A stretch of 64,000 bases of DNA from a phage, in the sequence record PV808484.1, one strand, 5' to 3'. A program made the translations under genes and the position numbers. Shown piece by piece: positions 5,330 through 62,876 of the stretch (its first letter is position 1; every line of letters begins with the position of its first letter). The notes beneath the pieces are model-generated. The model was not told the DNA's origin. It saw only the letters and a program-made list of their open reading frames with translations, and did no database searches.

Positions 5330-5675
5330 GTATTCTTTTTTCACAATGGAAGCGACACGTAAAGAATAGGCGTAAAAGGTGGCGTAAAACCATCTAAAAC
5401 CGACTGTAACCGCTTAAACAAGGCAGGGATGATTAATCCCCTTACCAGGATGAAAAAGCTGTTAGAGAGCTATTCATAGCGTTTAAAGCACATAGGAAAT
5501 AATTTGCTTTTTATCTTGCCTTTTATCCTGCTTTTGATTATTATTATGGAACGGGCGGCACCTGGGGACAGGGGAAGATAATCACCGGAAGATCCCGCTA
5601 TATATTGATAGCTAATACCTATTAAACAACAAAACATCAAAGGGATAAACTATCAAATCTTTACAATCCTACCTA

Positions 5676-5735
5676 TTGACACACGATCACCCTTATACTA
5701 ATATGTATCCCGTAGGCGGGAAATGGTTTCCCGCT
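5676..5735 (+). promoter_or_regulatory. TTGACA promoter plus conserved leader hairpin (5715-5735)
   Basis: read directly; precedes ATG 5754. Confidence 0.5.
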
Positions 5736-5753
5736 TGATATAGGAATCATACC

Positions 5754-5984
5754 ATGATCGAACAAATTAAAAGCACTCAAAATGTTAACGGCAATGTGTT
5801 CCACTTTATCGGCAATAAAGGAAAAGGCGTACCCTACGCCGCCGTAACCGTGCAACCTAATGGCGATTATTGGTTTACCGTGTACGGATCATACTCTTTC
5901 GGACGCCCGGCACATGATAAGATCTTGCAAGCGGTTAAACCTGCGGGGAAGAATATTACAGCAGAAAAATTTTATAAAAAATAG
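5754..5984 (+). CDS. hypothetical protein
   Basis: ORF track. Confidence 0.5.
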   Translation: MIEQIKSTQNVNGNVFHFIGNKGKGVPYAAVTVQPNGDYWFTVYGSYSFGRPAHDKILQAVKPAGKNITAEKFYKK

Positions 5985-6059
5985 CTTGCTTTATTTCTTC
6001 TGTTAACTTATAGTTATCGCGTAGGGCAAACAATTTTAAACGGTAGACGAGGAATCACC

Positions 6060-6443
6060 ATGAGCAATATCATCAACCTGGCAGCGACTGTAAACGGTAA
6101 AGACTTTAACGGCGCTGTAGACCGTGATCCTATGTGGTGCTTATCAGTGTTTAAAGGCGATCTGGTTGAAGTTAGAACAACCGAAGGGTATAGCGATGAT
6201 TATAAATGCGAGATCCATTTACATAACTGGTACACGGGGAAAACTTATGCGCTGAATCACGCGTTTATCGGGAAAATTGAATATCGCGAGATGATCGACG
6301 ATGAAACGGGGCAAGATTTTAGTGATTATGTTTATATTCGTTCAGAAACATTAGCCGAACGTTTGATCGAGAAAATGAAAGCAAAAAATAAAATTAATTT
6401 AGCTCATTGGCTTGATATAACAAATGATCCGGCTTACAAGTAA
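6060..6443 (+). CDS. hypothetical protein
   Basis: ORF track; GAGGAA RBS. Confidence 0.5.
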   Translation: MSNIINLAATVNGKDFNGAVDRDPMWCLSVFKGDLVEVRTTEGYSDDYKCEIHLHNWYTGKTYALNHAFIGKIEYREMIDDETGQDFSDYVYIRSETLAERLIEKMKAKNKINLAHWLDITNDPAYK

Positions 6444-6459
6444 ATAACATTTCATACCA

Positions 6460-6485
6460 GGGCGCACAAAGCGCCCTTTCTTTTT
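6460..6485 (+). terminator. intrinsic terminator GGGCGC-ACAAA-GCGCCC plus T-run
   Basis: read directly. Confidence 0.6.
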
Positions 6486-6742
6486 ACCTAAATAAAGATG
6501 ATAGCTTTTACCTATCAAAAACATTCACCGAAAAAAGTGAATAGATCGCGGTATCGAGCTAATCAAGGAGCAGATGAACAACCATACCATGAAGATCATA
6601 AGGCGCTTACAACGTGTTTTAAACCGCTTATTTTTAATTTCTCCATGTAACTATCTGGCAAAAACAGCCTTTTTCGTGTCTTTCCTCTTAAGTGATAATC
6701 ATTCTTATTTATAGCTGATTATTTATGCAATAAACTGCATAA

Positions 6743-6762
6743 TGCAATAATGATAATCATTC
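6743..6762. repeat. Fur-box-like iteron (AATGCAATAATGATAATCATT)
   Basis: shares the ATGATAATCATT core with the copies at 7629 and 7817; a shorter copy lies at 6694-6704. Confidence 0.45.
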
Positions 6763-7176
6763 TTAACTTATGACCATCTAACCTATAAAATAATAAGTTA
6801 TCTAACTAAATTAAAGCTAATTATTTCACCTTTATTTATAACTTACTGTTACTATCTCATTGATAACCTTATATTAAACAACAATAACTAATATAAATCA
6901 TTACTAAGCTAAATATAATCTATCTAACCTTTAAAACTATAACTATAATCTATCGAATTGTTGCACAAAGTAACTATTAAATTGTTAGTAACATTACTAA
7001 ATAATTCATATCCTATCTATTTATGATCTAATCTTTACTTTCCTATCTATTACCTAAATAATCCTATCATACAGTTACCATTTCATGTAATAATCATTTC
7101 ATACAATAACTATAACAAGAAATATAATTCGCAAGCGTATCATTAGCAGCCTATGCCGGACACATAGGCGGCTAAT

Positions 7177-7312
7177 AATAACGCAACTACACACCCCACA
7201 TAATAACCATCACCGATAGTTATTATTTGTGCTTATGTAGCTTGCAACAATTGCAAGCGCAACAATATACATGGTATATTGTATCCCTTACATTGTTGCG
7301 GTGCGTTATTAT
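7177..7312. repeat. long-range inverted repeat (GCTAATAATAACGCAAC / GTTGCGGTGCGTTATTATTAGC) enclosing palindromes
   Basis: read directly; inner palindromes GCCTATG-N7-CATAGGC and GCTTGCAA-CAA-TTGCAAGC. Confidence 0.4.
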
Positions 7313-7628
7313 TAGCTAATGTTTGGAACATTGGCTATAATATAAGCTAAATAATAAGCTATTCAATAATAAACATAATGAATAATGACACTGATGATCA
7401 TAATGCGCCACCTTCCAGGGGGCGCTATGTGAACACAAAGAAATCTTTCTTGTCAAGAAAAATATTAACACTATTGCGCAAAATTATTTATGTCTGAATA
7501 GATGATTTTTCATACTATTGTTATTATTTATCGGCCCTAACTATTGCCTATTTGTTGAGCCTACTTTCTTAAAAGCGCAATAAATCAGAATTATCTTGAT
7601 TTTTAGGGTGTTTTATAGTATAGAAAAT

Positions 7629-7649
7629 ATGCAAATGATAATCATTATC
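7629..7649. repeat. Fur-box-like iteron GCAAATGATAATCATTATC
   Basis: about 17 of 19 positions match the enterobacterial Fur box consensus GATAATGATAATCATTATC. Confidence 0.45.
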
Positions 7650-7816
7650 AGCTATCTTCCACGGGTGGCACTATTTCACGCAGGATCATTTCATTTGGCA
7701 AGGTGTATATAGATGTTTAGACTTGCCAAGCCATTGATTTACTTAGAATTTATCTGTTTTGTTGTGAGTAGTACCTTTCTTGCTCAGAAAATAATCAAAA
7801 GTCTTATAAGTCATTG

Positions 7817-7845
7817 AATGATAATGCAAATGATAATTATTCTCA
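7817..7845. repeat. Fur-box-like iteron pair GAATGATAATGCAAATGATAATTATTCTC
   Basis: read directly. Confidence 0.45.
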
Positions 7846-8206
7846 TTGATATTTGAGGGGGACGGTCGGCAGAAATCGGGGGGCGCTGAAAATCGCGTTA
7901 AGCACCTCTCGCAAGCGAGCAGTATTTTGCGGCAAGTTATTGATATTATTGGCTTTACGCTTATGGAAAGGGGGTGTGTCGAAATAAATCGGGTATACCG
8001 GAAAATTTTTGTGGCATAGATATTTATTTGTCTATATTATGTACAAAGGGGTGTGTTAAAAATATTAGGTATATATAGAATAATTGATAGGGAAATCCTA
8101 TACTAATTCCTCCATTAATGATGTTTCTATGTTGCTGTTCTTGTAACAGATGAAAAGACGCTGTATGATGTGTAGCATGAAACGTAAATTTATAAAGGAG
8201 TCTGAT

Positions 8207-8575
8207 ATGTGTGTTCCTCTTAGCAGTCCTCTGCTGTTAGAATTTTACAAAGCATGGATGGAAGATCATTCCTCAATGCATCGTGAGAATGTTGGTTTGT
8301 GTAATTGCCTTATGGATTACCTGGCAACCACTATGTCAAAGAAAAAGCCTACGGAAGAAGATATAGAATATTTCAAGATGGTTCGTAGCAAAACGCTGAA
8401 AGAGATGAAACTGCAATTCACGTGTGCTGGGCTATCCTCCTTCCTACCCTTTAATTATGATCTTCTATGTTATGAAGATGAAGGTAAGACACATTCTTGC
8501 CATACCAACCCAAAGAGATTGCAGTGGGTGAAAGATCGTATTGCCGATTCATGTTTGGTGTTAGGGGGGTGGTAA
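8207..8575 (+). CDS. hypothetical protein, paralog family A member 1 (Cys/His-rich)
   Basis: AAGGAG RBS; shared motifs FYKAW, GLCxCL, FTCAGL, LPFN, CHTN, LQWVKDRI with three other genes. Confidence 0.5.
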   Translation: MCVPLSSPLLLEFYKAWMEDHSSMHRENVGLCNCLMDYLATTMSKKKPTEEDIEYFKMVRSKTLKEMKLQFTCAGLSSFLPFNYDLLCYEDEGKTHSCHTNPKRLQWVKDRIADSCLVLGGW

Positions 8576-8943
8576 TGAAAAGTAATATTCCGTTGAGTAG
8601 TGCAGCTTTAATACGATTCTATAAAGCATGGATTGCCAACCATCCGGCAATGAATCGCACAACGAGTGGCTTGTGTGGTTGTCTGGTAGATTATGTAGAT
8701 GATTTTGTTGGCGAGGTAACTAGAGAAGAAGATAAAAGATGGCGTGATCGTTTGTTGGATAGTTTGAAATACGAAATGAGGAAACAATTTACATGTGCAG
8801 GACTGGACTACAATCTTCCGTTCAATGTAGATTGCATGGATTACCTTTCAGAGTGTATAGACTTGGCGTGTCATACCAACACGTTACGTCTTCAATGGGT
8901 GAAAGACAGAATCGAAGATGCAAATAATGCTTGCATTGAATAG
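8575..8943 (+). CDS. hypothetical protein, paralog family A member 2
   Basis: ATGA overlap start; same motif set as 8207..8575. Confidence 0.5.
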   Translation: MKSNIPLSSAALIRFYKAWIANHPAMNRTTSGLCGCLVDYVDDFVGEVTREEDKRWRDRLLDSLKYEMRKQFTCAGLDYNLPFNVDCMDYLSECIDLACHTNTLRLQWVKDRIEDANNACIE

Positions 8944-9014
8944 AAATGTCTGTACACTGTGTTCCATAAGATATGCAATATCGCGCATAACAAAACTACT
9001 AATGAGAGGTGTAA

Positions 9015-12145: not shown

Positions 12146-12730
12146 ATGAGTAAAATTATACCAAGCAGTTATGAATTATTGCAGTTTTATGTATATTACT
12201 TAGACTGGGTTAATAGATCGAATGTTAAAGACAATGCGATGTTTAGTAAAAACATCTGTTTAACAGAAAGTATCTTCCGTTATTGGCACACAGGCAGAAA
12301 GTGTACACACAGTGAAGCTATGCGCATTGTAGGTGAATACCTGGAGCAATTGCAAAAAGCAGAACTTCCTGTCCTTCACCCATTCAACGAATCTAAAGAA
12401 GAATTAGAACAAGAGTGTAGAGAAGGTAAGTGCCATTTAAATGAAAAACGTATCGAATGGGTGAGGCAACGTTTAGCCGATGCAGGGAATCCTCCTAGTG
12501 ACTCTGACTATACGTGGTATGATGTAGAGGGTTTAGTTCAAGGTTTTGAGGCTTGTGCTATAGGTAATACCAACTTTGCCAAAGTTTTATGCGAGGTTTA
12601 TGATCTGGCAGATAAAATCCGAAATCACGGATGGAAACAAGAGCATAAAGAATCATATGAACGCCTTGACAAGATTTTCAAACAGATCTATTCTAACCAC
12701 AAAGAGATGTTCCAAATGGAGGATGTGTAA
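12146..12730 (+). CDS. hypothetical protein, paralog family A member 4 (C-terminally extended)
   Basis: AAGGAGAGG RBS; motifs LQFY, HPFN, CHLN, IEWVRQRLAD. Confidence 0.5.
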   Translation: MSKIIPSSYELLQFYVYYLDWVNRSNVKDNAMFSKNICLTESIFRYWHTGRKCTHSEAMRIVGEYLEQLQKAELPVLHPFNESKEELEQECREGKCHLNEKRIEWVRQRLADAGNPPSDSDYTWYDVEGLVQGFEACAIGNTNFAKVLCEVYDLADKIRNHGWKQEHKESYERLDKIFKQIYSNHKEMFQMEDV

Positions 12731-60270: not shown

Positions 60271-60356
60271 GCAAGTGTGGTGGAATTGGTGATACACATT
60301 GTGCTTAAAACGCAACGCTTAAATGATTGAGGGTTCGAATCCCTCCACTTGCACCA
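60271..60356 (+). tRNA. tRNA-Leu (anticodon TAA), class II
   Basis: acceptor GCAAGTG/CACTTGC, T-arm GAGGG-TTCGAAT-CCCTC, anticodon loop CTTAAAA, long variable arm, encoded CCA. Confidence 0.7.
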
Positions 60357-60358
60357 AC

Positions 60359-60464
60359 GCCTAGTAGGGTATTTGGTAATTCCGAGGCCATCAAAGCCTG
60401 AAAAATATGTTAGACCGCTTTGTCTAACTAAATACGAAATATGGTTCGATTCCATAACTAGGCT
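60359..60464 (+). tRNA. atypical 106 nt tRNA-like element
   Basis: perfect 7 bp acceptor GCCTAGT/ACTAGGC and canonical T-arm TATGG-TTCGATT-CCATA, but about 30 nt too long; candidate anticodon loop CATCAAA. Confidence 0.3.
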
Positions 60465-60497
60465 TCAATTTAAATAGTAATTTTAGTAAAAAATATC

Positions 60498-60526
60498 TTG
60501 ACATTTACTTAGTTTTTTGTTATAGT
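60498..60526 (+). promoter_or_regulatory. promoter TTGACA-17-TATAGT driving downstream tRNAs
   Basis: read directly; ideal 17 bp spacing. Confidence 0.55.
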
Positions 60527-60537
60527 CGTTATGAAAA

Positions 60538-60619
60538 CGGGGTGTATCTCACCTGACTTCTAATCAGGCGTTAACCGAGTAATTGGAGTATGCAGGTTCG
60601 AATCCTGTCACCCCGGCCA
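60538..60619 (+). tRNA. tRNA-like element, possible tRNA-Arg (anticodon loop CTTCTAA) with irregular D region
   Basis: perfect acceptor CGGGGTG/CACCCCG, T-arm GCAGG-TTCGAAT-CCTGT, CCA; perfect stem-loop CCTGA-CTTCTAA-TCAGG; cloverleaf not resolved. Confidence 0.4.
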
Positions 60620-60682
60620 AAAAGTTTTAAAAACTACTTGACAAGCAAGATAGTTTTATGTTAGATTTAAAGTATGATAACT

Positions 60683-60772
60683 GGAAGGTAGGGCGCAGCG
60701 GTGCGCAACCAGGTTTGAACCCTGGCCCATTGTAGCGATACGGTGATGGTTCGACTCCATTATCTTCCTCCA
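60683..60772 (+). tRNA. tRNA-Ser (anticodon TGA), class II
   Basis: acceptor GGAAGGT/ATCTTCC, D-arm GCGC-AGCGGT-GCGC, anticodon arm CCAGG-TTTGAAC-CCTGG, 19 nt variable arm, T-arm GATGG-TTCGACT-CCATT, CCA. Confidence 0.8.
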
Positions 60773-60790
60773 AATTCAATGAGTGATTTT

Positions 60791-60943
60791 ATGAATTATA
60801 AAACTATTGGACAGGTTGTTACCGGAGTTAAGATTGTAAATAATAAAGTTGTTTATGAGTATTCTAATCTTCAACAATCTGAAGATGGTAAGAATATTCG
60901 TATGGTAAAAGCAGAACAAAAAGATTCCGGTTGTTTTGAATAA
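60791..60943 (+). CDS. hypothetical protein (50 aa)
   Basis: internal ATG of ORF 60743..60943; the upstream part overlaps tRNA-Ser. Confidence 0.35.
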   Translation: MNYKTIGQVVTGVKIVNNKVVYEYSNLQQSEDGKNIRMVKAEQKDSGCFE

Positions 60944-60951
60944 TTAAGAAC

Positions 60952-61037
60952 GGTAGATTGGTGAAATGGTAGCCACAACAGTTTGCTAAACTGTCGTCGG
61001 AAACGGCGTGTAGGTTCAAGTCCTACATCTACCGCCA
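60952..61037 (+). tRNA. tRNA-Ser (anticodon GCT), class II
   Basis: acceptor GGTAGAT/ATCTACC, anticodon arm ACAGT-TTGCTAA-ACTGT, variable hairpin CGTCGGAAACGGCG, T-arm GTAGG-TTCAAGT-CCTAC, CCA. Confidence 0.8.
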
Positions 61038-61172
61038 AGTTATCTTTAATGTAGCTTGTAATCTTACTTTAGCAGAGTAAATCTTCGGCAAGTGGCGGTA
61101 ACCACTTTACCGATACCCCAATACTTCATAGCTAAGTGCCGCAAACACTGGCTATTTTAAAGATAATTTTAT

Positions 61173-61247
61173 ACATCGTTAGCCAAGCGGTAAGGCACTT
61201 GACTTTTAATCAAGGGAGCGAAGGTTCGAATCCTTCACGATGTACCA
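61173..61247 (+). tRNA. tRNA-Lys (anticodon TTT)
   Basis: acceptor ACATCGT/ACGATGT, anticodon arm CTTGA-CTTTTAA-TCAAG, T-arm GAAGG-TTCGAAT-CCTTC, CCA. Confidence 0.85.
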
Positions 61248-61252
61248 AACAC

Positions 61253-61339
61253 GTAGGTATCGCATAGCGGCAATTGCTGGAGACTGTAAATCTCCTGCCC
61301 TTCGGGGCTTCGTTGGTTCGAGTCCAACTACCTGCACCA
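61253..61339 (+). tRNA. tRNA-Tyr (anticodon GTA), class II
   Basis: acceptor GTAGGTA/TACCTGC (one G-U), anticodon arm GGAGA-CTGTAAA-TCTCC, variable hairpin, T-arm GTTGG-TTCGAGT-CCAAC, CCA. Confidence 0.8.
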
Positions 61340-61346
61340 AATTAAA

Positions 61347-61431
61347 GATGGATTGGCCTAGTGGTTGGGCGACGGACTGTTAATCCGTGAACGAAAGTTC
61401 TAGCAAGGTTCAAATCCTTGATCCATCGCCA
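61347..61431 (+). tRNA. tRNA with Asn anticodon (GTT) on a class II (long variable arm) scaffold
   Basis: acceptor GATGGAT/ATCCATC, 3 bp D-stem GCC/GGC, anticodon arm ACGGA-CTGTTAA-TCCGT, 15 nt extra arm GAACGAAAGTTCTAG, T-arm CAAGG-TTCAAAT-CCTTG, G73, CCA. Confidence 0.65.
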
Positions 61432-61435
61432 AATA

Positions 61436-61504
61436 GTGCTTGTAGAGTTAATAGAAACCTCTAGAATTTTCTAGAATTGTAGGTATCAAATCCTACCAAG
61501 CAAA
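61436..61504 (+). tRNA. tRNA-like element, no encoded CCA, irregular anticodon region
   Basis: 6 bp acceptor pairing, T-arm GTAGG...CCTAC with 8 nt loop; region contains TCTAGA-ATTTTC-TAGA palindrome. Confidence 0.25.
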
Positions 61505-61510
61505 TATTTT

Positions 61511-61585
61511 GCTCCTATCGTATAACGGCTATTACGGTTGCCTTGTAAGCAACTTATCAGGGTTCGAGTCCTTGTGGGAGCACCA
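61511..61585 (+). tRNA. tRNA-Thr (anticodon TGT)
   Basis: acceptor GCTCCTA/TGGGAGC (one G-U), anticodon arm GTTGC-CTTGTAA-GCAAC, T-arm CAGGG-TTCGAGT-CCTTG, CCA. Confidence 0.8.
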
Positions 61586-61607
61586 ATTTAACTCTAAAGG
61601 AGTGTAT

Positions 61608-61931
61608 GTGACAGAAAAAGAGTTAGAGAAATATTTTAATATCAATGTTTTCGATGGTTTTGATGATATTGAAGATGTTGAAAGATACTATGAAGTAGAG
61701 TTAGATAAGGATAACATTGTAATTCTTTCTGCCACTTATGATTGTGCATATTATGAAGGCGAATCTCACGTTTATTTCTATGATATGAAAACATCTTTGT
61801 TTTATGAAGTACACGCATATCATTGTTCTTGTTATGGCTTAGAAGGTCAGTGGGAACCTGAAGAAATAGGTGATTTGAGCTTTACGGTTGCATATCTAAA
61901 CAGACGTGGTGCATCTACTATTTTAAAATAA
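61608..61931 (+). CDS. hypothetical protein
   Basis: GTG start 5 nt after AAAGGAG RBS; the ORF-track N-terminus overlaps tRNA-Thr. Confidence 0.45.
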   Translation: MTEKELEKYFNINVFDGFDDIEDVERYYEVELDKDNIVILSATYDCAYYEGESHVYFYDMKTSLFYEVHAYHCSCYGLEGQWEPEEIGDLSFTVAYLNRRGASTILK

Positions 61932-61945
61932 ATATTAAAAGCCTC

Positions 61946-61975
61946 TTGACAAAGGGGCTAATAATATGTTAGAGT
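61946..61975 (+). promoter_or_regulatory. TTGACA-type promoter upstream of tRNA-Gly
   Basis: TTGACA 61946-61951. Confidence 0.45.
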
Positions 61976-61986
61976 AATATTGTTAA

Positions 61987-62061
61987 GCGGGTATAGTGTT
62001 AATGGTAGCATATGAGGTTTCCACCCTCCAGGTGCAGGTTCAAGTCCTGTTACTCGCTCCA
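61987..62061 (+). tRNA. tRNA-Gly (anticodon TCC)
   Basis: acceptor GCGGGTA/TACTCGC, anticodon loop TTTCCAC, T-arm GCAGG-TTCAAGT-CCTGT, CCA. Confidence 0.7.
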
Positions 62062-62160
62062 AGATTATTTAAATGGAATCGCTAGAGAAAATTTCTCTTT
62101 TCGCTCATGGTTTTCTCCTTCAAACTCTAGCGGTTCTTTTTAAGTGATTTTTAGTTTTAT

Positions 62161-62235
62161 TGGAGATTAGCCTAGTGGGAAGGCAACGGCCTTTGAAGTC
62201 GTGATGACTAGGTTCGATTCCTAGATCTCCAGCCA
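62161..62235 (+). tRNA. tRNA-Gln (anticodon TTG)
   Basis: U1-A72 acceptor TGGAGAT/ATCTCCA, anticodon arm ACGGC-CTTTGAA-GTCGT, T-arm CTAGG-TTCGATT-CCTAG, CCA. Confidence 0.85.
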
Positions 62236-62242
62236 ATATTTA

Positions 62243-62318
62243 CAGTGCGTAGCGCAGTTGGTAGCGTGGGAGCTTTGGATGCTTCGGGTCGCAGGTTCGA
62301 GTCCTGCCGCACTGACCA
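62243..62318 (+). tRNA. tRNA-Pro (anticodon TGG)
   Basis: acceptor CAGTGCG/CGCACTG, D-arm GCGC-AGTTGGTA-GCGT, anticodon arm GGAGC-TTTGGAT-GCTTC, T-arm GCAGG-TTCGAGT-CCTGC, CCA. Confidence 0.85.
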
Positions 62319-62323
62319 AATTT

Positions 62324-62398
62324 GCAGAGATAGCTGAGACGGATTAGTGCTACCCTGAAAAGGTAGAAAGGATGGATCGTTACCATCTCTCTGCACCA
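62324..62398 (+). tRNA. tRNA-Phe (anticodon GAA)
   Basis: acceptor GCAGAGA/TCTCTGC, anticodon arm CTACC-CTGAAAA-GGTAG, T-arm GATGG-ATCGTTA-CCATC, CCA. Confidence 0.8.
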
Positions 62399-62475
62399 AA
62401 TAACACCATCCAAGGAGTAGACTTGGTTAACTGTCAATAGCACATTGAGGCTTCTTACAGTGGTGCACTTATTAT

Positions 62476-62560
62476 GGCTAAGTGGTGGAATGGTATACAC
62501 GATACGCTTAGAACGTATTGCCCCAAGGGATTGTGAGTTCGAGTCTCACCTTAGCTACCA
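62476..62560 (+). tRNA. tRNA-Leu (anticodon TAG), class II
   Basis: acceptor GGCTAAG/CTTAGCT, anticodon arm ATACG-CTTAGAA-CGTAT, long variable arm, T-arm GTGAG-TTCGAGT-CTCAC, CCA. Confidence 0.8.
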
Positions 62561-62575
62561 AATTACTACAGATTG

Positions 62576-62654
62576 CGCGGGATAGAGGAGTCTGGTCGTC
62601 CTCGCCAGTTTCATATGCTGGAGATCATCGGTTCGAATCCGATTCCCGCCTCCA
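62576..62654 (+). tRNA. tRNA-Met (anticodon CAT; elongator, initiator or Ile2 not distinguishable)
   Basis: acceptor with one C-C mismatch at pair 1-72, D-arm GAGG...CCTC, anticodon arm CCAGT-TTCATAT-GCTGG, T-arm ATCGG-TTCGAAT-CCGAT, CCA. Confidence 0.7.
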
Positions 62655-62698
62655 ATAAATACTTCCCTTCTGGTGTAATGATTAAATTACATTGACAC

Positions 62699-62795
62699 TT
62701 CAAGGAACTCATAGCCGGGTAGATTTAAAAGAGTATGGTACTCAATATGGCTCCAAACCATAGATCAGGGGGTTCGATTCCTCACCTTGCTGCCA
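62699..62795 (+). tRNA. tRNA-like element with Trp anticodon loop (CTCCAAA) but unpaired or extended 5' region
   Basis: perfect anticodon arm TATGG-CTCCAAA-CCATA, T-arm GGGGG-TTCGATT-CCTCA, CCA; 5' acceptor partner only 5 bp and about 22 nt too far upstream. Confidence 0.35.
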
Positions 62796-62800
62796 ATTAT

Positions 62801-62876
62801 TGTGGTATCGTACAGATGGTTAGTACACTCGACCGATAATCGAGAAACAACGGTTCGACTCCGTTTACCACGACCA
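62801..62876 (+). tRNA. tRNA-Ile (anticodon GAT)
   Basis: acceptor TGTGGTA/TACCACG, D-arm GTAC...GTAC, anticodon arm CTCGA-CCGATAA-TCGAG, T-arm AACGG-TTCGACT-CCGTT, CCA. Confidence 0.85.

What the first reader, a model, noticed from the sequence alone, without database searches (positions are those of the whole stretch)
6444..8149. 1.7 kb ORF-free AT-rich region with Fur-box-like iterons and nested inverted repeats
In an otherwise gene-dense genome this stretch has no ORF of 60 codons or more. It contains at least four copies of an ATGATAAT(C/T)ATT core; the copy at 7629-7649 matches about 17 of 19 positions of the enterobacterial Fur box consensus GATAATGATAATCATTATC. It also holds a long-range inverted repeat (7177-7190 versus 7294-7312) enclosing the palindromes GCCTATG-N7-CATAGGC and GCTTGCAA-CAA-TTGCAAGC, and GC-rich islands sharing GGGGGCGCT (around 7416 and 7880). 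It could be a replication origin with iterons, a set of Fur or other host-regulator binding sites (iron sensing or titration of a host regulator), or a locus for non-coding RNAs.
Basis: seen in the sequence. Interest (0 to 1): 0.6.

Follow-up and report, generated by a model that had tools for sequence, protein, structure and literature searches.

The report
Phage genome-end region with Fur boxes
The gene-free stretch is where the two physical ends of this phi92-like phage genome meet: it holds the known 343-bp terminal repeat, several near-perfect binding sites for the host iron regulator Fur at conserved positions, and a conserved folded DNA or RNA element, neither of which turned up in the literature searches done here.

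Summary
Window 6444-8149 has no ORF of 60 codons or more. Its Fur-box-like motifs are far above chance, and the inverted repeats exist. The window is a phi92-like myovirus (Justusliebigvirus), and the region is its genome terminus, or concatemer junction. Window 7558-7900 is the 343-bp direct terminal repeat (DTR) annotated in phi92. Both borders fall in one motif, GTTR|AGC, which is conserved across genera.

Two Fur boxes lie inside the DTR. Box D is 69-71 nt from the right border in 12 of 13 relatives; box C is 75-78 nt from the left border in the E. coli-type relatives, farther in the Klebsiella clade. Two more lie in the right arm. Box C contains TGATAATCATTATCA, the same core as the nohA/lambda-cos site that purified Fur shifts in published work, so Fur binding is very likely. 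Its purpose is inferred only.

The nested inverted repeats (7149-7316) form a multi-helix element with strong covariation: 12 compensated pairs, 99% of cells paired. Whether it acts as DNA or RNA is undecided.

No evidence supports an iteron origin. The DTR is known biology; the Fur-box architecture and the structured element look undescribed.

The parts
6459..6477 (+). Intrinsic terminator that closes the last (right-end) operon, downstream of the Gp30.8-like gene at 6060-6443.
   Evidence: Stem-loop plus T-run. Invariant across genera. Annotated as a terminator in phages Paula and PATM.
6688..6706 (.). Fur-like box A1 (TTAAGTGATAATCATTCTT; core TGATAATCATT at 6693-6703).
   Evidence: A box at the aligned position in Phapecoctavirus (TGCAATGATAACCATTATC) and in Klebsiella phages (AATAATGATAATCAATCTC).
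6746..6764 (.). Fur-like box A2 (AATAATGATAATCATTCTT; 16 of 19 to the Fur consensus).
6651..7130 (+). AT-rich spacer that is G-poor on the + strand (23% GC, 6% G), with five short YTATCKA repeats. The sequence is not conserved between genera, but the A/C-rich, G-poor composition is.
7149..7169 (.). Hairpin P0 (GCCTATG-N7-CATAGGC).
   Evidence: Three of 7 pairs show compensatory changes and 100% of cells are paired in 18 sequences.
7171..7316 (.). Multi-helix element closed by the 15-bp stem P1 (7171-7185 with 7302-7316). It encloses P1b (7187-7190 with 7237-7240), P2 (7203-7211 with 7215-7223), the invariant P3 (7241-7247 with 7251-7257) and P4 (7258-7266 with 7292-7300).
   Evidence: RNAalifold gives 44 pairs, 12 of them with changes on both sides. 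99.1% of cells are paired against 90.8% in shuffles and 22-46% in slid controls. Fold z-scores are -6.4 (+ RNA), -8.3 (- RNA) and -8.4 (+ DNA). The block is 97.5-100% identical within the genus and about 80% across genera.
7385..7436 (+). Degenerate copy of the border module: a box-like CTGATGATCATAATG, then 12 nt, then GGGGGCGCT, then ATGTGAACAC.
   Evidence: Repeat family D1.
7553..7560 (+). Left DTR border motif TGTTG|AGC. The phi92 genome starts at window 7558.
   Evidence: Invariant in 7 genomes of 3 lineages. The Klebsiella phage record PQ360875 also appears to start at this site, by coordinate arithmetic.
7558..7900 (+). Direct terminal repeat (343 bp), present once in the window, as expected for the concatemer-junction or circular-assembly form.
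   Evidence: phi92 DTR-L 1-343 aligns to 7558-7900 at 98% identity without gaps. phi92 and UAB_1 annotate it. PhageTerm reported a 342-bp DTR in BME3 (PMC12210895); the repeat at the two ends of the BME3 record maps to 7558-7899.
7631..7650 (.). Fur box C: GCAAATGATAATCATTATC (17 of 19). It includes the perfect 7-1-7 palindrome TGATAATCATTATCA at 7636-7650.
   Evidence: The core is identical to the nohA/lambda-cos Fur site (PMC2189734). The 19-mer starts 75-78 nt after the left border motif in the E. coli-type genera.
7695..7729 (.). Hairpin inside the DTR (TTGGCAAG-N19-CTTGCCAA). It is only partly conserved.
7814..7853 (.). Fur box D, a run of NATWAT-type hexamers (TTGAAT GATAAT GCAAAT GATAAT T ATTCTC ATTGAT), followed by the conserved TGATATTTG.
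   Evidence: The best 19-mer starts 69-71 nt before the right border in 12 of the 13 relatives and in the window itself, with 2-6 mismatches.
7856..7905 (+). GC-rich border module (GGGGGACGG...GGGGGGCGCTGAAAATCGCGTTA|AGCAC) containing the right DTR border after 7900.
   Evidence: AAAATYCGCGTT[A/C]AGCA is nearly invariant across genera.
7966..8100 (+). Left-end leader. It has two direct repeats of AAGGGGTGTGT-N12/13-GGTATA (7969-7996 and 8046-8075) and a conserved block ending in ATAATTGATAGG (8080-8091). This is the presumed early-promoter region for the first gene at 8150.
   Evidence: Repeat family D14. Cross-genus block 8017-8109. GGGGTGTG occurs only here and, inverted, at 7197 within the 64 kb. 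The promoter assignment is an inference.

Best explanation
The stretch is the genome-end control region, or concatemer junction, of a phi92-like virulent myovirus.

Shown: 7558-7900 is the 343-bp direct terminal repeat. The DNA to its left (6444-7557) is the non-coding right arm of the packaged chromosome. The DNA to its right (7901-8149) is the leader of the first left-end genes. Both DTR borders lie in the same conserved motif, GTTR|AGC, usually preceded by a GGGGGCG island.

Inferred: this motif is the recognition and cutting module used when unit genomes are cut from concatemers.

Shown by sequence: high-affinity sites for the host iron regulator Fur are embedded in this architecture. One lies about 80 nt inside the left border and one about 70 nt inside the right border. 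Two more lie 800-870 nt upstream in the right arm.

Inferred: host Fur occupies these sites. My preferred reading is that Fur acts as a host accessory factor for genome-end biology, organising or marking the ends for cutting, termination of packaging or end protection, much as IHF serves lambda cosB. Titration of Fur would be a likely side effect.

Shown: the nested inverted repeats at 7149-7316 are a base-paired element maintained by selection.

Inferred: they act as DNA hairpins in end processing, for example in duplicating the repeat, rather than as an RNA gene.
For: Identity:
- The region is 94-96% identical to Justusliebigvirus genomes.
- The phi92 DTR maps to 7558-7900.
- Independent evidence for short DTRs: a PhageTerm DTR of 342 bp in BME3 (PMC12210895; mapping), and termini that PMC11663894 lists for FKP3 as short DTRs of 317 bp.
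- An ORF-free gap of 1.5-2.0 kb sits at the same position in all six relatives whose full gap was extracted, from two further lineages.

Borders:
- TGTTGAGC and CGTTAAGCAC are invariant islands in otherwise diverged DNA.
- Motif pairs lie 321-344 nt apart in 12 of 13 relatives, and 412 nt apart in one.

Fur boxes:
- 17 of 19 and 16 of 19 matches to the consensus; 0 of 2000 local shuffles reach 2 mismatches.
- Offsets from the borders are conserved across genera.
- The consensus of 19 distinct phage boxes is GATAATGATAATCATTCTC, 18 of 19 to the Fur consensus. This is partly circular, because the boxes were chosen by similarity to that consensus.
- BLAST of box C against E. coli genomes lands on an iron-permease promoter in pUTI89 and on lambdoid cos regions.
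- One of those hits is the site 234 nt upstream of nohA. Chen et al. scored that site at 22.3 bits and shifted it with 150 nM Fur. It had been selected in vivo by Fur titration (PMC2189734).
- No phage of this subfamily encodes a Fur homologue.

Link to ends rather than to gene promoters:
- In lambda-type cos the same box sits about 43 nt from the cosN nick and 6-7 nt from GGGTCCT (cosQ, recalled).
- Phage Muenster carries 4-5 such boxes in the non-coding start of its terminal repeat.
- A second five-box array in relative AV123 lies between convergent genes.

Structure:
- 12 compensated pairs, 99.1% of cells paired, 0 of 500 shuffles as good, and slid controls at 22-46%.
- Departures from Watson-Crick pairing are strand-symmetric: 5 G.T and 7 A.C cells on the + strand. 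That is what duplex-derived hairpins on either strand would give.
Against: - No binding, packaging or transcription data exist for this DNA. Fur occupancy and any role in end processing are inferences.
- Box-to-border distances differ from lambda (about 43 nt against 66-85 nt) and change in the Klebsiella clade (103-171 nt for box C).
- Box C is weaker in other genera (5 mismatches), and box D is absent in Citrobacter phage Tr1.
- Boxes A1 and A2 and the array in AV123 are not at ends, so end biology cannot be the only role.
- Fur boxes contain -10-like hexamers by nature, so promoter control cannot be excluded. One weak leftward promoter candidate (7671 to 7644) overlaps box C.
- The minus-strand RNA of the structured element folds best (-82 kcal/mol, z -8.3), which fits an RNA.
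- The T7 hairpin precedent is recalled from memory, not verified here.
Confidence: 0.6

Rival explanations
1. Iron-sensing switch. The boxes are ordinary Fur operators that overlap host-RNA-polymerase promoters in the terminal repeat and right arm. Holo-Fur would then repress, and iron starvation would release, early or non-coding transcripts.
For: - Fur sites normally overlap promoters.
- Chen et al. chose the identical nohA site as a candidate Fur-controlled promoter, using a sigma-70 model together with a Fur model (PMC2189734).
- The DTR lies directly upstream of the first early genes.
- In Muenster the boxes lie 200-500 nt upstream of the first gene.
- Weak candidates exist: TTTATA-18-GATAAT ending at 7642 (my reading of the sequence) and the minus-strand GTGCCA-16-GATAAT.
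Against: - Promoter-like sites are not enriched (21 against 14.5 +/- 3.7).
- No -35/-10 pair around boxes C or D is conserved across genera (inspection).
- The first gene starts 300-500 nt downstream.
- The lambda-cos box and the AV123 array (between convergent genes) have no obvious gene to regulate.
Confidence: 0.25
2. Fur decoy. The boxes have no cis role. Replicating phage DNA soaks up Fur and de-represses the host iron-uptake regulon, for example to feed phage iron enzymes.
For: - There are many strong sites per genome: two per DTR copy, two in the right arm, and five more in the second array seen in relatives.
- Multicopy Fur sites are known to titrate Fur in vivo. This is the basis of the Fur titration assay that recovered nohA (PMC2189734).
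- Some of the arrays lie in non-promoter contexts.
Against: - Fixed distances from the DTR borders across genera are not needed for a sponge.
- The copy-number argument uses recalled figures for Fur abundance.
- The lytic cycle is short.
Confidence: 0.2
3. The boxes bind a phage protein, such as the small terminase or an early regulator, and only resemble Fur boxes by chance or by mimicry.
For: - They are 13-15-bp palindromes in repeated modules (box, 12 nt, GGGG) next to the cutting sites, as expected for terminase recognition sites.
- Many copies prefer ATTCTC over the consensus ATTATC.
Against: - The same sequence occurs in unrelated phages (lambdoid, Alcyoneusvirus) and at a genuine iron promoter. 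That points to a shared host protein.
- The identical core is a proven Fur site.
- GAGAAT-type hexamers also occur in genuine Fur sites (recalled).
Confidence: 0.2
4. The element at 7149-7316 is a structured non-coding RNA. It is more likely read from the minus strand, starting near 7332.
For: - Strong covariation.
- The minus-strand RNA fold is the most stable (-82.2 kcal/mol, z -8.3).
- A minus-strand promoter-like site, TTGAAT-16-TATATT at 7366 to 7339.
- Phapecoctavirus has a TATAAT next to the stem on the minus strand (my reading of the alignment).
Against: - No Rfam match at E <= 1.
- No terminator follows the element on either strand.
- Wobble and mismatch cells are split 5 to 7 between the strands.
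- The predicted start would fall inside stem P1 in Phapecoctavirus.
- P3 never varies, as a protein-recognised sequence would.
Confidence: 0.25
5. Replication origin. The AT-rich, G-poor stretch would act as an unwinding element, and the structured element or the boxes as initiator or primosome sites.
For: - 23% GC over 480 nt next to a conserved folded element.
- GC skew is strong enough to favour R-loops for leftward transcripts.
- No origin is known for this family. The rV5 paper found only skew changes tied to transcription direction (PMC3606486).
Against: - No tandem same-sense iterons.
- Only two DnaA-box-like matches in the region, each with one mismatch, at chance level; one lies inside box D.
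- No initiator gene is evident next door.
- The AT-rich part is not conserved in sequence.
- Skew in the window follows gene orientation.
Confidence: 0.15

Closest known systems
Direct terminal repeat of phage phi92 (NC_023693: DTR-L 1-343, DTR-R 148270-148612)
   Same: Homologous sequence (98% over 343 nt), same borders, same flanking genes (gp248-like Gp30.8 protein on one side, small early genes on the other).
   Different: The phi92 record annotates only the repeat. It carries no annotation of border motifs, Fur boxes or the structured element. Here the repeat appears once, in junction form.
T7-type short-DTR concatemer junction (recalled: Dunn and Studier 1983; Chung, Nardone and Hinkle 1990; Fujisawa and Morita 1997)
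   Same: A short terminal repeat cut at sequence-specific borders. Non-coding DNA with short repeats flanks it. An inverted repeat to the left of the repeat is proposed to form a hairpin that primes duplication of the repeat.
   Different: There is no sequence similarity. This is a myovirus without a T7-type RNA polymerase. The element here is a 170-nt multi-helix structure 241 nt from the repeat, and T7 has no Fur boxes. The T7 details come from memory, not from a tool.
Lambda-type cos region with the nohA/nohB Fur site
   Same: The same 15-bp palindrome, TGATAATCATTATCA, lies a few tens of bp from the terminase cut, followed by a G-rich element (GGGTCCT in lambda; GGGTGGC, GGGGACG or GGGGCGC here). 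That site is a proven Fur binder.
   Different: Lambda has cohesive ends rather than terminal repeats, a single box, different distances, and an unrelated terminase and phage family. No function is known for the lambda box either.
Fur-box hexamer arrays at iron-regulated promoters (for example pUTI89 FTR1 permease; iucA, recalled)
   Same: Runs of NATWAT hexamers and 19-bp palindromes. Box D is a run of 5-6 hexamers.
   Different: The phage arrays are not visibly tied to a promoter or to an iron gene.
IHF site I1 in lambda cosB (recalled)
   Same: A host DNA-binding protein site built into a packaging signal at a fixed distance from the cut.
   Different: A different protein. Only two IHF-core matches occur in the region (7727, 7933), out of 9 in the 64-kb window, and their conservation was not examined.

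Membership tests
phi92-type short direct terminal repeat (genome end) | Sequence homologous to an annotated DTR, with the same borders. | tested here: met
   phi92 DTR 1-343 aligns to window 7558-7900 at 98% identity with no gaps. Eleven listed records begin (one ends) at window 7558.
phi92-type short direct terminal repeat (genome end) | Physical ends at these positions in virion DNA (read pile-ups or run-off sequencing). | not testable with these tools
   No reads are available for this phage. Indirect support: PhageTerm gave a 342-bp DTR in BME3 (PMC12210895), which maps to 7558-7899.
phi92-type short direct terminal repeat (genome end) | Conserved border sequence in relatives. | tested here: met
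   GTTR|AGC is present at both borders in 13 relatives, 321-344 nt apart in 12 of them and 412 nt apart in one.
E. coli Fur box | Match to the 19-bp consensus, the 7-1-7 palindrome or three or more NATWAT hexamers, above background. | tested here: met
   17 of 19 and 16 of 19 matches; a perfect TGATAATCATTATCA; 0 of 2000 local shuffles reach 2 mismatches.
E. coli Fur box | Equivalence to a site shown experimentally to bind Fur. | tested here: met
   The core is identical to the site 234 nt upstream of nohA (L145). Chen et al. report that site at -233, 22.3 bits, gel-shifted by Fur (PMC2189734).
E. coli Fur box | Fur actually binds this DNA. | not testable with these tools
   This needs a gel-shift, footprint, ChIP or Fur titration assay.
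E. coli Fur box | Overlap with a functional sigma-70 promoter, as for a classical operator. | tested here: inconclusive
   Only weak candidates were found, with no cross-genus conservation. Promoter-like sites are not enriched.
Iteron-type replication origin | Three or more same-sense direct repeats of about 17-22 bp in a tight array. | tested here: not met
   The boxes are palindromic and spaced 58, 885 and 195 nt apart. The other direct repeats are short families of two or three copies.
Iteron-type replication origin | An adjacent AT-rich unwinding region. | tested here: met
   6651-7130 has 23% GC.
Iteron-type replication origin | DnaA boxes or a neighbouring initiator gene. | tested here: not met
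   No perfect DnaA box. Two one-mismatch hits occur at chance level (98 in the window). The flanking genes are Gp30.8-like and phrog_2510, both of unknown function.
Structured non-coding RNA | Conserved secondary structure supported by covariation. | tested here: met
   12 of 44 pairs are compensated and 99.1% of cells are paired.
Structured non-coding RNA | A transcription unit (promoter and terminator) and a strand-specific G.U pattern. | tested here: inconclusive
   One minus-strand promoter-like site and no terminator. G.U-compatible cells are split 5 (+ strand) to 7 (- strand).
Structured non-coding RNA | Membership of a described RNA family. | tested here: not met
   No Rfam 15 match at E <= 1 in 5500-9000 on either strand.
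Lambda-type cos site | Cohesive single-stranded ends at a cosN nick pair. | tested here: not met
   The ends are a 343-bp direct repeat. Only the Fur box plus G-rich element resembles the cosQ side.

The most novel reading that the evidence does not exclude
Host Fur is an unrecognised host factor for the ends of enterobacterial phage chromosomes. On this reading, unrelated phages have independently placed high-affinity Fur boxes within tens to hundreds of bp of their physical DNA ends. Examples are lambdoid cos phages, phi92-like DTR myoviruses, the jumbo phage Muenster and perhaps T5-like phages. Fur binding there would help terminate or position terminase cutting, or protect or handle the first DNA to enter the cell. 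Fur-regulon de-repression by titration would be a built-in consequence.
Probability: 0.22. Interest if true: 0.8.

Novelty: new variant of a known kind. Interest (0 to 1): 0.55.

Why it matters
The region itself is ordinary in kind. Every phage with terminal repeats has a non-coding end region, and phi92's repeat is already annotated.

Three things stand out:
- The cut sites can now be read as a conserved motif (GTTR|AGC) across a whole subfamily of therapeutic-candidate coliphages and Klebsiella phages.
- Near-consensus Fur sites are built into the repeat at conserved distances. The same sequence sits beside lambda's cos site, where Fur binding has been shown but never explained.
- A 170-nt element with textbook covariation lies beside the repeat and belongs to no described family.

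If Fur matters for genome-end handling, or is titrated by phage DNA, phage development becomes linked to host iron status. That is relevant in the iron-limited gut and in infection sites where these phages are used. It would also give a simple handle (fur deletion hosts, box mutants) on the poorly understood mechanism that makes short terminal repeats.

Tried and rejected
- Rfam scan of 5500-9000 at E <= 1: no match.
- Sigma-70 promoter and terminator scan: promoter-like sites are not enriched (21 against 14.5 +/- 3.7). The only terminator in the region is 6459-6477.
- Small ORFs inside the region: no Pfam or PHROG hits. Cross-genus indels are not multiples of three. Coding was therefore rejected, and the 8-11 'hypothetical proteins' called here in some GenBank records look like over-annotation.
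- DnaA boxes, IHF cores and GATC sites: nothing notable.
- YTATCKA 'iterons' in the AT-rich part: only five copies, not conserved between genera.
- Metagenome scan with the palindrome GCTTGCAANNNTTGCAAGC: the pattern was too unspecific. Of the loci returned, two were true relatives (L073, and L044 in part). The IMG/VR scan added only four loci.
- BME3 as a guide to the ends: the record is internally inconsistent, so I relied on phi92 and on the repeat at the BME3 record ends.
- Phage-encoded Fur: tblastn finds no homologue in this subfamily.
- Literature searches for Fur boxes combined with phage terminal repeats, cosQ or this subfamily: nothing relevant. The phi92 genome paper is not held.
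- Building a quantitative Fur weight matrix: the published site lists are not held as text. I therefore used consensus mismatches and identity to a validated site.
- Strand assignment of the structure from wobble pairs: undecided, 5 to 7.
Full report
**1. The observation**

The stretch 6444-8149 has no ORF longer than 57 aa. The five internal ORFs tested (44-57 aa) hit no Pfam or PHROG family. The flanking ORFs are real genes: 6060-6443 is a Phage_30_8 protein, and 8150-8575 and 8497-8943 are two phrog_2510 paralogues.

The region is 32% GC. A 480-nt core (6651-7130) has 23% GC and only 6% G.

The core TGATAAT[CT]ATT occurs at 6693, 6751, 7636 and 7831 and nowhere else in the 64 kb. Counting both strands, TGATAATNATT gives 5 hits against 0.65 expected.

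The 19-mer at 7631-7649 matches the Fur consensus at 17 of 19 positions, and 6746-6764 matches at 16 of 19. The AT-rich background does not explain this. In 2000 dinucleotide-preserving shuffles of the region itself, none reached 2 mismatches and 0.4% reached 3.

The long-range inverted repeat is real, but its arms are 7171-7185 and 7302-7316.

**2. What the region is**

The DNA is 94-96% identical to Justusliebigvirus genomes, the phi92-like myoviruses of subfamily Stephanstirmvirinae.

In phi92 the homologous gene-free DNA is split between the two ends of the linear record. RefSeq annotates a 343-bp direct terminal repeat at both ends. That repeat aligns to window 7558-7900 at 98% identity with no gaps, and it occurs only once in the window. 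The window therefore shows the junction form: right arm (6444-7557), repeat, then left-end leader (7901-8149).

There is independent support for these ends:
- PhageTerm gave a 342-bp repeat in phage BME3 (PMC12210895). The 342-bp repeat at the ends of the BME3 record maps to 7558-7899.
- Eleven of the listed records begin, and one ends, exactly at window 7558.
- By coordinate arithmetic, the Klebsiella phage record PQ360875 starts and ends at the equivalent positions.
- Phage FKP3 is reported to have short DTRs of 317 bp (PMC11663894).

An ORF-free gap of 1.5-2.0 kb occupies the same position in the six relatives whose whole gap I extracted, from Phapecoctavirus and a Klebsiella clade. The rV5 genome map also carries an unexplained 'non-coding' box (PMC3606486).

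**3. Anatomy from comparison across genera**

Most of the region has diverged too far to align, but islands survive:
- the terminator at 6459-6477 and the DNA up to about 6805, including boxes A1 and A2;
- 7139-7316, the nested inverted repeats;
- the left repeat border, invariant TGTTGAGC, with the cut after GTTG;
- box D, then TGATATTTG, then a GC-rich island, then AAAATCGCGTTA|AGCAC, which is the right border;
- 8017-8109 in the leader.

Both borders share GTTR|AGC. In 12 of 13 relatives a pair of these motifs lies 321-344 nt apart; in one the spacing is 412 nt. In most genera GGGGGCG precedes the motif.

The one at 7879 is part of the right border. The one at 7418 belongs to a degenerate third copy at 7385-7436. 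I infer that this module is the signal for recognising and cutting unit genomes.

**4. The Fur boxes**

Box C includes TGATAATCATTATCA, a perfect 7-1-7 Fur palindrome.

A BLAST of box C against 5,426 E. coli genomes gave three kinds of best hit. One is a plasmid site upstream of an FTR1 iron permease. The other two are lambdoid prophage cos regions.

One of those is the site 234 nt upstream of nohA in the Qin prophage: GATGATAATCATTATCAC, followed by TTTACGGGTCCTTTCC...GGTTACG|GGGCGGCGACCT. From memory, the latter is lambda cosQ and cosN.

Chen et al. list this very site (-233 from nohA) at 22.3 bits. They note that it was recovered in vivo by Fur titration, and they show that 150 nM Fur shifts it. 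The matching nohB site scores 25.3 bits, among the strongest in the genome (PMC2189734). A sequence with the same core as box C is therefore a proven Fur site.

In the phage family the boxes hold their positions while the surrounding DNA drifts. Box C starts 75-78 nt after the left border motif in the E. coli-type genera, and 103-171 nt after it in the Klebsiella clade. Box D starts 69-71 nt before the right border in the window and in 12 of the 13 relatives. Boxes A1 and A2 sit 330-490 nt upstream of the structured element.

Box D is a run of NATWAT-type hexamers. The consensus of 19 distinct boxes is GATAATGATAATCATTCTC. There is a caveat: I picked those boxes by similarity to the Fur consensus.

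No phage of this subfamily encodes a Fur homologue. I conclude that host Fur very probably binds here. That is an inference until tested.

**5. What Fur might do there**

A classical operator role is possible, but I found no support for one. Promoter-like sites are not enriched, and no -35/-10 pair around the boxes is conserved.

Three observations point away from simple gene control:
- The lambda-type box sits in the cos site, about 43 nt from the nick.
- The unrelated jumbo phage Muenster has 4-5 boxes (GTAAATGAGAATCATTATC) in the non-coding start of its terminal repeat.
- In the close relative AV123, a second gene-free stretch about 10.6 kb upstream, outside this window, carries five boxes in 120 nt between convergent genes.

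The fixed distances from the cut sites make me favour a structural role at the genome ends, comparable to IHF in lambda cosB (recalled). Titration of Fur by replicating phage DNA would be a likely by-product. The operator, decoy and phage-protein readings remain open and are listed as rivals.

**6. The nested inverted repeats**

I aligned 18 distinct sequences from four lineages: Justusliebigvirus, Phapecoctavirus, the Klebsiella clade and Citrobacter phage Tr1, plus IMG/VR and metagenome contigs.

RNAalifold predicts a hairpin (7149-7169) followed by a domain closed by the 15-bp stem 7171-7185 with 7302-7316. That domain encloses four further helices.

The statistics are strong:
- 12 of 44 pairs show changes on both sides, including repeated G-C to C-G swaps.
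- 99.1% of cells are paired, against 90.8% in shuffles (0 of 500 as high) and 22-46% when the partners are slid.
- The sequence folds far better than shuffles as RNA on either strand and as DNA, with z-scores of -6.4, -8.3 and -8.4.

Helix P3 (GCTTGCAA-N3-TTGCAAGC) never varies, which suggests it is also read as sequence.

Non-Watson-Crick cells are split between the strands. Five are G.T on the + strand. Seven are A.C on the + strand, which would be G.T on the - strand. There is no Rfam match and no terminator.

This strand symmetry, together with the position 241 nt to the left of the repeat, resembles the T7 model. In that model an inverted repeat left of the terminal repeat folds back to prime duplication of the repeat. 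I am recalling this model and did not verify it here. I therefore lean towards DNA hairpins used in end processing, while keeping an ncRNA and an origin or primosome site as rivals.

**7. The origin hypothesis**

The AT-rich, G-poor spacer could serve as an unwinding element. However, there are no tandem same-sense iterons, no perfect DnaA box and no initiator gene next door. Skew follows gene orientation. I rate this reading low but not excluded.

**8. Novelty and verdict**

The terminal repeat is already annotated in phi92. The literature searches turned up nothing on Fur boxes in phage terminal repeats, on the border motif, or on the structured element.

The finding is a known kind of feature, a phage genome-end region. 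It has two unusual, strongly conserved components whose mechanisms can be tested directly.

Noticed in passing
L149 2039-2851 (phage AV123, OR352953.1, record 77962-78774); outside the window, about 10.6 kb upstream of the terminus region: A second gene-free stretch lies between convergent genes. It carries five Fur-like boxes within about 120 nt (L149 2478-2592), followed by a GC-rich island and preceded by three direct repeats of about 65 nt. Phage PD06 has a match at 12591-12609, outside its terminus region, which may be the same array.
   Followed up: partly
L145 1505-1525 (E. coli Qin prophage) and L144 1501-1521 (O157:H7 prophage): The proven nohA Fur site is a perfect Fur palindrome. 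It sits 6-7 nt upstream of GGGTCCT (cosQ, recalled) and about 43 nt from the cosN nick of lambda-type cos sites. I know of no function assigned to it in packaging.
   Followed up: partly
L148 985-1522 (Klebsiella jumbo phage Muenster, MT708547.1, first 1.3 kb of its terminal repeat): Four to five boxes of the form GTAAATGAGAATCATTATC lie in or next to the non-coding DNA upstream of the first gene. They are almost identical to box C of phi92 (GTAAATGATAATCATTATC).
   Followed up: no
L147 195-219 (T5-like Salmonella phage Kenya-K18): CTGATAATCATTATCATC lies about 200 bp from the left genome end, but inside the dmp coding sequence. Many T5-like records show the same hit.
   Followed up: no
window 7971, 8048 (+ strand) and 7197 (- strand): GGGGTGTG(T) occurs only three times in the 64 kb. 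Two copies face right in the left-end leader, each followed 12-13 nt later by GGTATA. The third faces left and forms the conserved unpaired C-rich loop (AACTACACACCCC) of the structured element. Similar motifs flank the AV123 box array.
   Followed up: partly
window 60271-62876: A cluster of 14 tRNA genes, all on the + strand.
   Followed up: no
window 8150-8575 and 8497-8943: The first two left-end ORFs are paralogues (phrog_2510, unknown function). As listed they overlap by 79 nt; relatives annotate the second gene from a start further downstream.
   Followed up: no
L004/L005 (phage BME3, PP239276.1): The record is internally inconsistent at its ends. A 788-nt stretch is duplicated, a 342-nt repeat sits at both ends, and the annotated 'DTR-L' is shifted 73 nt relative to that repeat.
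   Followed up: yes
Hits H13-H16 and H187: Records labelled Campylobacter phage (MG0656xx) and Acinetobacter phage ABPW7 carry this coliphage-type region at about 80-95% identity. The host labels look doubtful.
   Followed up: no
window 6444-8149 as annotated in some GenBank relatives (for example VivaForever, Eryne, J-01): Automated annotation places 8-11 'hypothetical proteins' in this region. They have no family support, and their reading frames are not conserved.
   Followed up: yes
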